Source: Octopus sinensis
Lineage: Eukaryota
DNA: 64,000 nucleotides
Direction of reading: 5' to 3'
Assembly (NCBI RefSeq): GCF_006345805.1
Contig: NC_043011.1
Coordinates: 17,620,464 to 17,684,463, forward strand
In this document: positions 36,893-44,257 of the stretch, in pieces
How positions within the stretch are numbered: the first letter of the stretch is position 1
How the letters are laid out: each line of letters begins with the position of its first letter
Program-made: the position numbers

Positions 36893-39800
36893 TATATACA
36901 TATATACAACAGGCTTCTTTCAGTTTCCGTCTATCAAATCCACTCACAAGGCATTGGTCGGCCCGGGGCTATAGCAGAAGACACTTGCCCAAGATGCTAC
37001 GCAGTGGGACTGAACCCGGAACCATGTGGTTCGTTAGCAAGCTACTTTATTTCAAAACATATGCCATAAAGGCAGTACACAGATTAAGTTAGCTTTGCGG
37101 GGTGGACGAGGACATTAATGAGGTGAATGATAATGAAAGAAAGATGATAAGGATGGGAGAAGACAAAAAGCGCCCGCCGGCTTTCGCTTCTCTAAAACAT
37201 TGTTCTTTTTAAAGATAAACACAAAACGAGGTATTAAACCTCTTACAATTTTTCCAAATTTTGGACTTAGTAGTCCATTATTAATACAAAACGAGGTATT
37301 AATCCTCTTACAATTTTACAATTTTTGGACTTAAGTCCATTACTAATAATACATATCGTCCTTGAAATAGCTTGTGCCCGCGCCCTCCACCATCAACCAC
37401 GCCTCCCTCAGAACGTAATCAAGTTCCGAGTTCGAGTCGCCCGGGACCAAGTTATAATCTTCATTGAGCTCCTTTAGCCCAAGCGTCACGTCGAACGCCA
37501 CGGCCTCCACAGCTACCTGCAGAGGCCATTCGGGGTCCTGTGTGAAGGCTAAAGGTGCTCCCTTGTAGTGCTCTTCCATCACTTTTTCAATTTCTCCTCC
37601 CTTATAGAAGAGAACCAATACGTTCAGTTCTTTCGTTGGCGGAACAGTTCCCGCCAACGGTATTCCTTCTCTTGTCGGTGGCACAACCCCAACCGACGTA
37701 GTTCCGGGACATTCCGGTGCTACACTGACAGCCGGTAATGTCCCGTTTTTCTTCCTCTTTTTCCTTTTTTTTCCCTTTTCAACTGAGTGAGGGTACGTCT
37801 CCTCCGTGGCTGGAAGATTCGCCTTCCTCTCCTCATCCCTATTATCCTTTGGTGAGCACCCATTGTTGCTCACCTTCCTCTTTCGGCCTCTGTTTGAGGA
37901 GTCCTCTGCTTTCTCGGCCGTTGTCGTTCCCTCTTCTAGAGGGGTTTTACTTAACTGTTCCGGGATCCTATTTTGTTCCCGAGGACAGTTCTTCTTTATG
38001 TGGCCGGATTCCAAGCACCGATGACACTTAGGGGGGCGACCCTCAAGCATCACCGGGTACCTGCACCCGGCCATTTTCAAAAAATCTGGAAGAACTAGAT
38101 TGGCTGATTGGGTCCACAGGGTCAAAATTGCTTTTGACCCAAACCAAGCAGTCGCAGGAAGAACTTTTACATTGAGGAGCTTAGTTTCGCTGTCACACAG
38201 ACCCCGGCGGATAGTCTCCTCTATCCACTCGGGTTCTATATCGGGTGGCAATGCGCATATCCAAGCTTTTATCAATTTCTTTTTTTTTGTACGTGGGCAG
38301 GAATAAGATTTCCTTACCCTCCAAGGGTTTGCTAGCAAATTTGCAAGCCTCTTCAGGGGTGTCAAATAGCAACCACACCGTTGCATATTTGACACCCCTG
38401 GAAATGAATTTAATTGTTGGCAAATACTCTTCCAACTCCTCCTCAATTGCCGTCTTTTCGAATAAGGCGATGGTGTCGAGTGCCTTGGAGTAGGTTCTCA
38501 ACACCACCGTCCTATCTTCACGGTCTTTTAACCACTTTTTAGGTGGTATGATTTTCCACTCCAAAATTTTGTTATTTTTCATTGCCATGTTTTTTTTAAA
38601 ATATATACAAATTAAACTCAAAAAGCAGGAACAAAAAAGTTCAAAAGTTCAAATAAAATTTGATGGATTTTTGAAAAAACAAAAAGGAGAAAGCACAACA
38701 GAAGGGAAGAAATCAACGGAAAGTCGCAATAAAGAAAAAAACAAAAAGGGGGGGGTTAAATGAAGTTCAAAAGAAAGTTAATAAACAGAAAAAAACACAG
38801 CAAAAATATTCTGGCCTTGCGGTACCCCCGGCCTGGGTTGAACCTGGAACGCCGCAACTGCAACACAACCCCCACAAAAATGGGTCCGAAAGGTAATCCA
38901 ATAGTGGCTTACTTTTATAATTTTTTTGCGAAGTAGTAGTTTTCACAATTCATAAAAGTTCTTCACAGCACAATACAATTCTCACAATTACGTGAGAAAA
39001 ATATTTACTCACTTTATCGAAGACGGATACGCCCACAAAAATTTTCTCAGCTAGAAAAATATATTTGCCACATGTCGGCAGAATCAGAATTCTGAATCCA
39101 GTAGGACTTCCTGCCTGTAAAAAACAATTCTCAACAAAAACTCCCACTGGACCCAGAAAACAGAATCTTACCTTACATGGGGCTTCCAAAGTTTTCAATT
39201 CAAGACGGCTTCAATAGCACATCTTCACCGCTTCAGTGCCAAACACAACACTGACTCGCACATGCGCAGAAGCAACCGTTAGCAAAGCTACTTTATTTTA
39301 TATTATTTGCCACTAGGGCAGCACACAGAGTAGTAGCTACAGGCTGGACAAGGACATTAATGGATGATGGTGGTGGTGGATGAAGATGGAGATGGGAGAA
39401 GTCGAAAGCGCCCGCCGACTATCGCTTCTCTAAAACAATGTTTCAATAAATACATTTAATAAAATGTTCACAATGATTCAAATTACATATTTTAGAGGAG
39501 GCAATAAACCTCCTCTTCAACATGTTTAAAAAATGTTCAACAATTCTCCTCGTCAGGTCCCCGAAGCAAATTGTCTTGCCGCCTGCAGACAACTCTGCGA
39601 CGACAAGTCGGGGCCTGCAAAGAGAAAAGTAAAATCTTTCCTCTCAAAGGTCTCTGCGACCGTTGACAAAATATCTTCCGTTACTTTTTCCGCAGCTACC
39701 AGCGGAGGCCATAACGGACTCCTTGAGCCGACCGTGCCCTTGCGTTCTCGGTCACCCAAGCCATTCAAAAACCTTTCCACCTCCTCTCCCTTGTGGTAAA

Positions 39801-42800: not shown

Positions 42801-44257
42801 ATGTCCTCAACACCACGGTTTTGTCCTCGAGCTCAATTCCCACACAGTGAAATTCCTTGTCATAACGTAAGAAAAACAGTTCAAAATGTTACAAAATAAA
42901 TTAGACACAGAAAGGAGAATGAAAAAAGCAACAGAAGCGAAGAAATAAAATTAAAATGGCAGTTCAAAAAAAGTTCTTTTTTTTTTACAAATGAATGATA
43001 GACGGAGAAAGAGAGTTCAAATTCAGACAAAGGAATTAATTTTTCTTTTTTTTTTGTTCACTTTTTCGGCCGAAAATTGTATTCCAGGCCAAATACACTG
43101 TTGGTAAAACACCTTGGTAAAATAATCCTTGGTAAACCCCGTGGATAACACAATGACAATTTCAAAAATAATTTTTGCAGACGGACTACGCCGCCTCAAA
43201 AACACAATTTTCTTTACACTCGACAACAGGCAGAAAAATTACATCCGGAGCAAAGTGGAGCTTTATTATCTGCTAAAAAATATTTAATGCTGAAAAACAT
43301 TAATGCAAGTAATAAAACTTCACTTCGCTCGCAAAAACACAAAATGCCTACCTGCAGTCGAGTCGAAAGTTCAACAATTCACGTTGAAACAATGTGGCAT
43401 CTGGAGCAGCAAAATAACACGTCTAACTCAGACGAAGGTTAGCAAAGCTACTTACCACACAGCCACTCCTGCGCCTGTATGTATGTATACCTATAAAACA
43501 TAAGTATATAGAATGTGTCCTGAATCAAACAATCCTTCATAAATCAATCCCTTACAATATTAATGACTTAGAAGCAGCGAAATCAACAATCTACTTTCTG
43601 ACTTCTATCCCTCGAAACCAAGTAGGGATTGCAAACTATCATATAAGTTACATAGCCGTTACCCTGCGTATTAAATCACCAATTACAATTATTGAAACGT
43701 AACAGTACAGTCTTAAATCAATTTATAGCTGTACAGTTGATATAAACTATATCATATTCCGTTGTTGTCTAGAAATCCAAGATCATATGTTCATGTAGAA
43801 GCATGGATGCTTGCCAGGGAAATGACTTTTGGAATTCGGAACCATCATTTATGTAGAAGTCATCTAAACCAAACTTACACTGCGTGTCGCATATTGAATT
43901 TACAAAAGCATGGATTAAGTAAAGCCAAAGAGACTAAAACGCACACCTGCTTTAATCTATTCGATAAGAGTTATGTTTCAATCTTAACAAACCACAAATA
44001 GATATGGAGAGCATGCCTTGAACTACTGGATATACAGATCATTATTTTACGAAAAATAAAGTATGTATTATTAGAACTATACAGAAATTATTGCCCTTGA
44101 ATACTTATAACAACTGCGATCTATTTATCTCTCTCTCTCTCTCTATCTATCTATCTATATATCTATCTATCTGTCTGTCTGTCTGCCTGTCTGTCTGTCT
44201 GTCTATCTATTTATCTATCTAGCTATCTATCTATCTGTCTGTCTGTCTACCTGTCTG

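What the first reader, a model, noticed from the sequence alone, without database searches (positions are those of the whole stretch)
37033..43453. Head-to-tail array of three different ORF1-only retroelements stacked at one nucleotide inside a SINE
Seen: GTTAGCAA(A)GCTACTT recurs at 37033, 39278, 41394 and 43438 (spacing 2245, 2116, 2044 bp). Between the repeats lie three co-oriented elements. Each encodes one RRM-like + CX2CX4HX4C protein (~415 aa in A' and B; C is decayed) and has no RT, endonuclease or integrase. The proteins are clearly diverged, with poorly similar C-terminal thirds, so this is not a tandem duplication. Removing the array rejoins a normal SINE (compare 51535-52048). Known: Tx1-clade L1s are often sequence-specific (Tx1L, Keno, Dewa, Mutsu), and ORF1-only 'half-L1' (HAL1) non-autonomous elements exist. 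Inference: this is a family of site-specific, ORF1-only elements that parasitise a SINE, regenerate their target and build repeat-spacer-like arrays. I do not know of this combination being described.
Basis: partly seen in the sequence, partly recalled or inferred. Interest (0 to 1): 0.9.

Follow-up and report, generated by a model that had tools for sequence, protein, structure and literature searches.

The report
ORF1-only retroelements stacked in a SINE
Three different small retroelements that carry only an RNA-binding "ORF1" gene sit head to tail at exactly one nucleotide of a short repeat in an octopus-like genome, and a fourth sits at the same nucleotide of another copy; this is a real site-specific parasite of a parasite, and it combines features already known from other site-specific retroelements.

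Summary
The 16-mer recurs exactly at 39278, 41394 and 43438, with a 15-nt version at 37033. It bounds three co-oriented minus-strand units of 2,230, 2,100 and 2,028 bp. A fourth, solo copy (23745-25882, 95.7% identical to unit A') sits at the same nucleotide of an unrelated copy of the same SINE-like repeat. Each unit has a 5' UTR, one ORF1-type gene and a 3' UTR whose last ~165 nt are conserved. The gene encodes two RRM-like domains, one CCHC knuckle and an unknown C-terminal domain. No reverse transcriptase or endonuclease is present. All four genes are broken, yet between subfamilies dN/dS is 0.06-0.47. The best reading is a family of non-autonomous, site-specific non-LTR elements inserted one after another by target-primed reverse transcription. 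The 15/16-nt duplication regenerates the target. The enzyme donor is not in the window, and Tx1 affiliation is untested. The novelty claim is overstated. Tandem insertions "sandwiching a TSD" are described for Tx1-dependent SINEU-3 (PMC4494074). ORF1-only elements are known as HAL1 and as HeT-A-type telomeric elements (PMC5753468, PMC13534243). Verdict: new variant of a known kind. Genome-wide specificity could not be checked.

The parts
36600..37047 (-). 3' part of the host SINE-like repeat (positions 23-506 of the reference copy at 51535-52048). Its last 15 nt, 37033-37047, are the outermost target copy.
   Evidence: (83% identity over 485 columns)
37048..39277 (-). Element A' (2,230 bp): 3' UTR, ORF1 gene, 5' UTR.
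37343..38588 (-). A' ORF1-type gene, broken by 1 frame change and no stops. It encodes two RRM-like domains, a CCHC knuckle and a C-terminal domain.
37048..37215 (-). A' conserved 3'-terminal ~165 nt, with a conserved hairpin.
38933..39277 (-). 5' module X of A', 99.4% identical to the module X of B.
   Evidence: family D1
39278..39293 (.). 16-nt target duplication between B and A'.
39294..41393 (-). Element B (2,100 bp).
39553..40802 (-). B ORF1-type gene, broken by 1 frame change and no stops.
41049..41393 (-). 5' module X of B.
41394..41409 (.). 16-nt target duplication between C and B.
41410..43437 (-). Element C (2,028 bp). Its 5' part at 43165-43383 resembles the 5' module Y of the solo copy (72% identity).
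41698..42834 (-). C ORF1-type gene remnant, with 2 frame changes, in-frame stops and no start region.
43438..43475 (-). 5' part of the host SINE (positions 1-38 of the reference copy). Bases 43438-43453 are the 16-nt target copy.
23358..23744 (-). 3' part of a second, independent SINE copy (positions 23-503). Target copy at 23730-23744.
23745..25882 (-). Solo element A2 (2,138 bp). It is 95.7% identical to A' over 1,893 aligned columns and carries a 5'-truncated module Y. Its ORF1 gene (24043-25285) is broken by 2 frame changes.
25883..25911 (-). 5' part of the second SINE copy. Bases 25883-25889 (GCTACTT) are a 7-nt duplication.
51535..52048 (+). Uninterrupted reference copy of the SINE-like repeat, with an empty target site.

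Best explanation
The stretch is a head-to-tail stack of three different non-autonomous non-LTR retroelements. Each consists of a 0.6-0.7-kb 5' UTR with an exchangeable distal module, one ORF1-type gene, and a ~0.3-kb 3' UTR whose last ~165 nt are conserved across subfamilies. The gene encodes two RRM-like RNA-binding domains, one CCHC zinc knuckle and a ~110-residue C-terminal domain of unknown fold.

The elements integrate by target-primed reverse transcription at one phosphodiester bond of a ~510-bp SINE-like repeat. That bond lies between positions 22 and 23 (GGT|AAGTAGC in the SINE's sense), and the element takes the SINE's orientation. The nicked strand, ending ...GCTACTT-3', primes cDNA synthesis on the element's 3' end. 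A second nick 15-16 nt downstream gives the duplication.

Because the duplicated 15/16-mer carries the cleavage site, each insertion leaves usable target copies on both sides. Later insertions of the same or sister subfamilies then stack with one duplication between neighbours.

The sequence-specific endonuclease and reverse transcriptase must come in trans from an autonomous LINE that shares the 3' end. That LINE is not in the window.

Shown here: the positions, the duplications, the independence of the two loci, the protein architecture, purifying selection on the protein between subfamilies, and the absence of RT and endonuclease.

Inferred: the TPRT mechanism, the trans enzyme and its clade, and the order of insertion.
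For: (1) Same nucleotide, independent loci.
- The 3' junction reads GCTACTT|TATTT in all 4 copies.
- Both interrupted SINE copies break at reference positions 22/23.
- The two SINE copies are ~81% identical, like other SINE pairs (72-87%), and share only microsatellite matches outside the SINE.
- 2 of the 6 SINE copies in the window that cover the site are occupied.

(2) TPRT-type junctions.
- The 3' junction is fixed and the 5' junction varies. The duplication is 16 nt in the array and 7 nt at the solo copy.
- The solo copy's 5' module starts about 60 nt inside the homologous module of C.
- The units have no terminal inverted or long terminal repeats (7 inverted pairs, none at unit ends).

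(3) Not a local duplication.
- A' against A2: 95.7% identity.
- A' against B: 68.5%. A' against C: 70.6%. B against C: 69.4%, each over only 425-631 columns.

(4) The 3'-terminal ~165 nt are conserved in all four copies, at 75-91% identity. In the alignment of the four 3' UTRs (the last 283-331 nt of each copy plus the adjoining target copy), 153 of 369 columns are invariant. This fits recognition by a partner RT.

(5) Protein.
- The AlphaFold model built with 59 aligned sequences has pLDDT 82.9.
- Foldseek against PDB gives tandem-RRM proteins (NONO/SFPQ, Hrp1, UP1), with 56 matches at E<=0.001.
- The knuckle matches zinc-knuckle chains only.

(6) The gene was functional during diversification. 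Per-piece dN/dS between subfamilies is 0.06-0.29 in the RRM parts and 0.30-0.47 in the C-terminal part, with dS of 1 or more.

(7) No RT or endonuclease domain.
- 0 of 8 element ORF pieces.
- 0 of 7 other large window ORFs.
- 0 of 30 relatives scanned singly.
- No relative above 1,507 aa (weak evidence).

(8) Precedent.
- Sequential tandem insertions 'sandwiching a TSD' of 16 bp at one site of another transposon (PMC4494074, section 14).
- L1-Tx1 families are recently active in Octopus vulgaris: 13 families and 421 insertions (PMC13282606 passage).
Against: - Only four copies at two loci could be examined, so genome-wide specificity is unknown.
- No autonomous partner, RT or endonuclease was seen anywhere, so the trans-mobilisation step and the clade are inference.
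- All four genes are broken, so no copy here is shown to be functional.
- The 3' UTR as a whole folds no better than shuffles (z = -0.10). Its conserved hairpin shows 0 compensatory changes in 23 predicted pairs (only 4 sequences).
- The 5' modules of A' and B are 99.4% identical although their bodies are ~69% identical. Some in-situ homogenisation (gene conversion) or RNA-level module exchange has therefore shaped the array beyond simple insertion.
- Three duplication copies carry one extra base relative to the fourth and to the 5 other SINE copies.
- The host repeat's tRNA-like nature was not confirmed (ARAGORN found 0 genes; Rfam found nothing).
- The evidence rests on one assembly, with no read support seen.
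Confidence: 0.78

Rival explanations
1. In-situ tandem duplication or unequal crossing-over of one inserted element, followed by divergence. The 16-mers would then be copied along with the unit rather than made by separate insertions.
For: - The internal three 16-mers are identical and share an extra base that the outer 15-mer lacks.
- Module X plus the 16-mer is 99.4-100% identical at the A'/B and B/C junctions, and the next 150 nt are 91% identical.
Against: - The unit bodies are only 68-71% identical, and alignable over only 425-631 of ~2,100 nt, with synonymous sites saturated.
- A' is 95.7% identical to a copy at another locus.
- Divergence after duplication would be uniform and neutral. 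Here it is mosaic, and dN/dS is 0.06-0.47.
- Recombination can explain module X but not the array.
Confidence: 0.06
2. The units are independent internal-deletion or truncation remnants of ordinary two-ORF LINEs, not a self-propagating ORF1-only family.
For: - No intact copy was seen.
- HAL1-type elements are known to arise repeatedly from full-length L1 (PMC5753468 passage).
- ORF2 loss is recurrent in telomeric Jockey elements (PMC13534243 passage).
Against: - 4 of 4 copies from three deeply diverged subfamilies have the same layout: the ORF1 stop, then ~0.3 kb of 3' UTR ending in the same conserved tail.
- Independent deletions would not share end points across subfamilies whose synonymous sites are saturated.
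Confidence: 0.07
3. Assembly artefact: separate solo insertions at different SINE copies were chained through their shared ends.
For: - The junction regions share about 510 bp of 91-100% identity, which can mislead assemblers.
- Frame changes in otherwise clean genes could be consensus errors.
Against: - A junction of the form '5' module - 16-mer - 3' end of another element' does not exist at solo insertions, so reads containing it must exist.
- The three units are distinct, and the outer flanks complete one SINE.
Confidence: 0.05
4. A tandem cluster of host genes (domesticated ZCCHC3-like RNA-binding proteins), not mobile elements.
For: - One relative is annotated as a gene (Octopus sinensis LOC115225585).
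- The Atlas lead to ZCCHC3-like clusters scores 0.89-0.90.
- There is purifying selection between subfamilies.
Against: - Every unit is bounded by a duplication of one SINE site, and an extra copy sits at the same site elsewhere.
- All four genes are broken.
- The conserved non-coding 3' end and the variable 5' truncation are typical of retroposition.
Confidence: 0.03

Closest known systems
Tx1-clade target-specific LINEs and their dependants (Tx1L in Tx1D; Tx1-Mar and SINEU-3 in Mariner-N4_AMi; Keno in U2 genes)
   Same: Insertion at one fixed site inside another multicopy sequence, including other transposons. The duplication is ~16 bp. Non-autonomous dependants share the target. Tandem insertions 'sandwiching a TSD' are attributed to sequential insertion (PMC4494074, passages and section 14).
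   Different: The elements here carry an ORF1 gene but no ORF2, whereas SINEU-3 carries no gene. The target is a SINE-like repeat. Clade membership is defined by RT phylogeny and cannot be tested, because no RT is present. No named Tx1 protein came back from any search.
HAL1 (half-L1) of mammals
   Same: A non-autonomous LINE derivative that encodes only ORF1p (PMC5753468 passage).
   Different: HAL1 derives from L1, whose ORF1 is the coiled-coil + RRM + CTD type (described in the PMC4120745 passage). No match to that Pfam family (Transposase_22, PF02994) was found here. As I recall, HAL1 is not site-specific; this was not checked.
HeT-A-type ORF1-only telomeric retrotransposons of Drosophila (Jockey clade)
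   Same: They carry a gag-like ORF1 only and depend on the ORF2 of other target-specialised families. They form head-to-tail arrays at a specialised target. ORF1-only lineages give rise to further ORF1-only lineages, and about 40% of telomeric families are ORF1-only (PMC13534243 passages). The ORF1 has RRM-like (MHR) and CCHC parts (PMC4120745 passage).
   Different: The telomeric elements extend chromosome ends. That they do so without an internal cleavage site and flanking duplications is recalled, not checked here. The octopus elements use an internal site in a dispersed repeat, with 7-16-nt duplications. There is no sequence relationship beyond the domain type.
Type I ORF1 proteins (RRM(s) directly upstream of CCHC knuckle(s)) and vertebrate ZCCHC3
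   Same: Two RRM-like domains are followed at once by a CX2CX4HX4C knuckle. Atlas clusters carrying RBD_ZCCHC3_1st/2nd + zf-CCHC lie among the nearest neighbours at 0.89-0.90.
   Different: There is one knuckle instead of the usual three in Jockey-type ORF1s (PMC4120745 table passage). An extra ~110-residue C-terminal domain has no detectable relatives. 0 of 59 family members match the Pfam ZCCHC3 domains at E<=0.01. No ZCCHC3 chain or named protein was returned.

Membership tests
Non-LTR retroelement inserted by target-primed reverse transcription | Flanking target-site duplication; no LTRs or terminal inverted repeats | tested here: met
   The duplications are 15/16 nt (array) and 7 nt (solo). 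No terminal repeats lie at the unit ends.
Non-LTR retroelement inserted by target-primed reverse transcription | Constant 3' end, variable or truncated 5' end | tested here: met
   The 3' junction is identical in 4 of 4 copies. The 5' ends differ, and 1 of 4 is truncated relative to its homologous module.
Autonomous LINE | Encodes reverse transcriptase and endonuclease | tested here: not met
   0 of 8 ORF pieces have such a domain. The units are only 2.0-2.2 kb.
Tx1 clade | RT domain groups with Tx1 in phylogeny | not testable with these tools
   There is no RT in the units or the window, and no eukaryotic genome collection was open to find a partner.
Target-specific retroelement (criterion of PMC4494074: one kind of sequence in more than 20% of flanks) | Most copies flanked by the same target at the same position | tested here: inconclusive
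   4 of 4 copies in the window, at 2 of 2 loci. The genome-wide share is unknown.
HAL1 | Derived from L1, with ORF1 of the coiled-coil + RRM + CTD type (Transposase_22) | tested here: not met
   No Transposase_22 match in the 8 pieces or in the 59 family members. The architecture is RRM-RRM-CCHC.
Type I ORF1 (as quoted in PMC4120745) | At least one RRM immediately upstream of a CCHC knuckle | tested here: met
   The model has pLDDT 82.9 with two beta-alpha-beta-type domains up to residue ~182 and the knuckle at ~188-204. Foldseek returns tandem-RRM hits. zf-CCHC matches 18 of 59 relatives at E<=0.01.
ZCCHC3-like proteins | Pfam RBD_ZCCHC3_1st and RBD_ZCCHC3_2nd domains | tested here: not met
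   0 of 59 members at E<=0.01. The domains are not among the 25 families listed at E<=10 (47 further families, each matching at most one member, were not shown). Only the Atlas lead at 0.89-0.90 remains.
tRNA-derived SINE (the host repeat) | 5' head recognisable as tRNA-like; many dispersed copies | tested here: inconclusive
   At least 6 copies in 64 kb cover the head. ARAGORN finds 0 tRNAs, and Rfam finds nothing at gathering score or at E<=10 on the head.

The most novel reading that the evidence does not exclude
A long-lived guild of ORF1-only retroelements has specialised on a single nucleotide of a SINE. It comprises at least three subfamilies whose protein stayed under purifying selection while synonymous sites saturated, and which exchange 5' modules. 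This would be an independent counterpart of the ORF1-only telomeric elements of Drosophila. It would suggest that target specialisation with self-regenerating targets favours loss of ORF2 and life as a protein-coding hyperparasite of a site-specific LINE.
Probability: 0.3. Interest if true: 0.7.

Novelty: new variant of a known kind. Interest (0 to 1): 0.5.

Why it matters
If the pattern holds genome-wide, it would be a second natural system, besides Drosophila telomeres, in which protein-coding but RT-less non-LTR elements persist as several selected lineages at a specialised target. It would make two questions testable in a cephalopod genome rich in SINEs and LINEs. The first is what ORF1 proteins contribute in cis when the enzyme is borrowed. 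The second is whether insertion into another parasite is a 'safe-haven' strategy. It also gives annotators a concrete rule: 2-kb units nested at position 22/23 of this SINE are separate insertions, not one composite repeat.

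Tried and rejected
- **Sequence searches with single ORF pieces** gave almost nothing. PDB phmmer returned 0 hits twice. The word-indexed protein search returned 1 hit among 4,088 candidates. Pfam gave only sub-threshold zf-CCHC.
- **The first structure prediction**, with 10 shallow rows, was useless (pLDDT 32). 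A second, with 59 rows, worked.
- **Foldseek against viral models** gave only generic RRM proteins of giant viruses (2 matches at E<=0.001).
- **The C-terminal domain** stayed unexplained (Atlas: no usable hit).
- **The search for fused ORF1-ORF2 relatives** found none above 1,507 aa (weak). None of the 120 listed relatives of 45-1,507 aa has a precomputed RT domain; 5 of the 120 carry PF00098 and the rest carry none.
- **The search for an autonomous partner in the window** failed. Of the 18 ORFs of 130 aa or more, 7 from outside the elements were scanned and none showed an RT or endonuclease. Seven small ORFs near 26.3-27.7 kb and 46.3-47.4 kb also had no family.
- **Mariner remnant.** My guess of a mariner remnant near 26.4 kb was not confirmed.
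- **RNA structure of the 3' end** is no more stable than shuffles and shows no covariation.
- **tRNA-likeness of the SINE head** was not confirmed.
- **Composite SINE+element unit.** I rejected the idea that such a composite moves as a whole. The two SINE copies are ~81% identical while the A bodies are 95.7% identical, and the 5' junctions differ.
- **Order of insertion.** The 5 other SINE copies have the shorter form of the duplicated motif. One length change followed by insertions into the 5'-side copy (A' first, then B, then C) needs 1 event, against 2 or more for the reverse order. This clashes with C being the most decayed copy, so I leave the order open.
- **Literature.** Searches found no description of SINE-targeting ORF1-only elements in cephalopods. 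Repbase and Dfam could not be consulted.
- **Supplements are closed.** The following may bear on the claims and were not seen: supplementary figures S3-S5 of PMC4494074, the supplemental figures of PMC13534243, and Table S1 and the repeat library of PMC13282606. That library might already hold this family.
- **Khazina and Weichenrieder 2009** (PMC2630067) is not held. It is cited only through PMC4120745.

Full report
**1. Observation**

The motif GTTAGCAAAGCTACTT is exact at 39278, 41394 and 43438. Chance predicts 0.05 matches, and 0 of 100 shuffles reach 3. A 15-nt version with one A fewer lies at 37033-37047. The spacings are as reported.

Between the repeats lie three units: A' 37048-39277, B 39294-41393 and C 41410-43437. 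Their coding strand is the minus strand.

A BLAST of the units against the whole window found a fourth copy, A2, at 23745-25882. It is 95.7% identical to A' over 1,893 columns.

**2. The host repeat and the site**

The reference repeat at 51535-52048 matches about a dozen places in the window. Six copies cover its first 40 nt.

Compared as separate pieces, the flanks of the two occupied loci align to the reference as follows:

| Locus | 3' piece | 5' piece |
|---|---|---|
| Array | 36600-37047 = positions 23-506 | 43437-43475 = positions 1-38 |
| Solo | 23358-23744 = positions 23-503 | 25880-25911 = positions 1-32 |

Both insertions therefore sit between positions 22 and 23 (GGT|AAGTAGC in the repeat's sense), in the repeat's own orientation. 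On the plus strand the 3' junction reads GCTACTT|TATTT in 4 of 4 copies.

The duplication is 15/16 nt in the array and 7 nt (GCTACTT) at the solo copy.

The two occupied SINE copies are ~81% identical, within the range of other pairs (72-87%). Outside the SINE they share only microsatellite matches. They are independent loci.

With 6 eligible sites in 64,000 positions, two independent hits on the same bond in the same orientation, plus two more in the array, are not credible as chance. This last step is inference from the counts.

The repeat's tRNA-like nature was not confirmed. I call it SINE-like.

**3. Anatomy of the units**

Each unit has three parts in its sense orientation.

- **5' UTR, about 0.6-0.7 kb.** Its distal part is a module of about 0.26-0.35 kb. 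Module X in A' (38933-39277) and in B (41049-41393) is 99.4% identical. A2 and C carry another module, Y, at about 72% identity, and A2 starts about 60 nt inside it.
- **One gene.** The coding spans are 1,243 nt in A' and 1,247 nt in B.
- **3' UTR, about 0.3 kb.** Its last ~165 nt are conserved in all four copies at 75-91% identity. In the alignment of the four 3' UTRs (the last 283-331 nt of each copy plus the adjoining target copy), 153 of 369 columns are invariant. It contains a conserved hairpin without covariation, with 0 of 23 predicted pairs compensatory. Overall stability is no better than shuffles (z = -0.10).

The units have no poly(A) tail, no terminal inverted repeats and no LTRs. 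G+C is 40-46% in the array, against 27-37% in the six 2-kb bins on either side of it.

**4. The gene**

Breaks counted by frame-aware comparison with the other subfamilies and with P0001:

| Copy | Frame changes | In-frame stops | Other |
|---|---|---|---|
| A' | 1 | 0 | |
| B | 1 | 0 | |
| A2 | 2 | 0 | |
| C | 2 | 9 distinct by the HSP count, possibly an over-count | Start region missing; similarity begins at residue 22 of P0001 |

The CCHC motif is complete in A', B and C. It lacks one ligand in A2 and in P0001.

Pfam sees only a sub-threshold zf-CCHC, in 3 of 8 pieces.

The only close database relative is Octopus sinensis LOC115225585 (P0001, 281 aa). The window is therefore probably octopod. 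I did not try to identify it further.

An exhaustive profile search found 127 proteins at E<=1e-3, 16 at E<=1e-10 and 1 at E<=1e-30.

With 59 aligned rows, AlphaFold gave pLDDT 82.9 for P0001. The model shows two RRM-like domains (about residues 27-100 and 104-182) followed by the knuckle. Foldseek against PDB returns tandem-RRM proteins such as NONO/SFPQ, Hrp1 and UP1, with 56 matches at E<=0.001. A profile search of PDB sequences returns zinc-knuckle chains only.

This is the 'type I' ORF1 layout, which is reported from the I, Jockey, R1, Tad1, plant L1 and L2 clades (PMC4120745 passage). It does not by itself point to Tx1.

The ZCCHC3 likeness is an Atlas lead at 0.89-0.90 that Pfam did not confirm (0 of 59 at E<=0.01).

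The ~110-residue C-terminal domain has no detectable relatives.

**5. Selection**

All values are computed per piece, never pooled.

- Between subfamilies, dN/dS is 0.06-0.29 in the RRM parts and 0.30-0.47 in the C-terminal part. dS is 1.0-3.7, which is saturated.
- Between A' and A2, dN/dS is 0.33 and 0.37 in two pieces. In the third it is 1.5, but that piece has only 7 differences.

The protein was therefore kept functional while the subfamilies diverged. The copies seen here are decayed offspring.

**6. No enzyme**

No RT or endonuclease domain was found in any of the following:

- the 8 element ORF pieces;
- 7 other large ORFs of the window;
- 30 relatives scanned singly.

None of the 120 listed relatives has a precomputed RT domain. 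No relative above 1,507 aa was found (weak evidence).

**7. Mechanism**

The fixed 3' junction, the variable 5' junction, the duplications and the conserved 3' end fit target-primed reverse transcription. The enzymes would be a sequence-specific endonuclease and RT supplied in trans. This is inferred.

The duplication carries the cleavage site, so the target is regenerated and further insertions stack. Stepwise insertion, not duplication, is shown by A' being far closer to A2 than to B or C.

The near-identity of module X in A' and B, against ~69% identity of their bodies, needs an extra process. It could be RNA-level exchange of 5' modules between subfamilies. The A lineage carries X in one copy and Y in the other, and replacement of L1 UTRs is known (PMC5753468 passage). 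Alternatively it could be local gene conversion. I cannot tell which.

The order of insertion is open (see Tried and rejected).

As a rough age estimate, I used the scale quoted for O. vulgaris, where a JC distance of 0.065 corresponds to about 18 million years (PMC13282606 passage). The 4.3% difference between A' and A2 then corresponds to a few million years. This holds only if that scale applies to this genome.

**8. What is known**

- **Tx1-clade elements** target fixed sites, including other transposons. For Tx1-Mar and SINEU-3 in Mariner-N4_AMi, a 16-bp TSD and tandem copies 'sandwiching a TSD' from sequential insertion are described (PMC4494074; I read passages and all of section 14).
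- **HAL1** encodes only ORF1p (PMC5753468 passage).
- **Drosophila telomeric elements.** About 40% of telomeric Jockey-clade families are ORF1-only. They depend on the ORF2 of other telomeric families, form head-to-tail arrays, and can spawn further ORF1-only lineages (PMC13534243 passages).
- **L1-Tx1** is found in 35 of 39 mollusc genomes studied (PMC10294476 passage). It counts 13 recently active families in O. vulgaris (PMC13282606 passage). A partner is therefore plausible.
- **The octopus LINE paper** PMC9115989 (passages) describes an RTE element and does not mention Tx1.

My searches found no description of ORF1-only elements that target a SINE, or of this family. Repbase, Dfam and paper supplements were not available.

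**9. Verdict**

The finding is real and well read. The combination (ORF1-only + single-nucleotide target in a SINE + stacked arrays + several selected subfamilies) is a new variant of known kinds, not a new kind.

The Tx1 label and the genome-wide specificity remain to be shown. The splice-donor-like motifs noted in the 5' modules were only read, not modelled.

Noticed in passing
38758-38852, 40924-41018, 25480-25545: A ~45-nt block in the proximal 5' UTR is conserved in A', A2 and B (family D7). In the sense strand it contains a GGTTCAACCC-like motif that resembles the SINE's own GGTTCCGGGTTCA block downstream of the target. The insertion separates the SINE's upstream head motif from that block. 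The label 'B-box-like' is recalled and comes from no call.
   Followed up: no
37221-37348 (also 23915-24048): The A-type 3' UTR contains a 65-bp tandem duplication (2 copies, 89% matches). It is present in both A copies and absent from B and C.
   Followed up: partly
sense strand of 39150-39200, 41270-41315, 43330-43350, 25845-25860: Both 5' modules carry a splice-donor-like G|GTAAG or G|GTAGG about 40-115 nt from their 5' end (read). A' and A2 have a ...TTGCAG further downstream. No intron model was made.
   Followed up: no
target positions +10 to +15: 37033-37038, 23730-23735 against 51568-51573, 22800-22815, 28745-28760, 49515-49530: Both occupied SINE copies read GCTAAC at the far end of the duplicated stretch. 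The four empty copies read GCTTAC, GCTTAC, GCTTAG and ACTCCC. This may hint that recognition extends that far, or it may be chance, since there are only 6 copies.
   Followed up: partly
46317-46371 and 47649-48002: Another SINE copy on the plus strand is split. Positions 88-142 and 164-505 are about 1.28 kb apart, so something else is inserted or expanded at a different SINE position. The ORFs inside have no Pfam family.
   Followed up: partly
38354-38400: A perfect 15-nt inverted repeat with a 17-nt spacer lies inside the coding region of A' (pair I7).
   Followed up: no
33043-33762: A 239-aa ORF on the minus strand has no family. The antisense 131-aa ORF gives only weak matches to families of membrane or low-complexity proteins, all below their gathering scores. 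Probably not a gene.
   Followed up: partly
proteins P0128-P0245: A very large, unnamed family of eukaryotic proteins from ENA assemblies (313 at E<=1e-5, up to ~770 aa) shares the RRM-RRM-CCHC part. Ten of them were scanned: nine of 686-774 aa and one of 437 aa (P0128). Two matched a zinc knuckle (zf-CCHC_6); none has any other Pfam domain in its remaining several hundred residues.
   Followed up: partly
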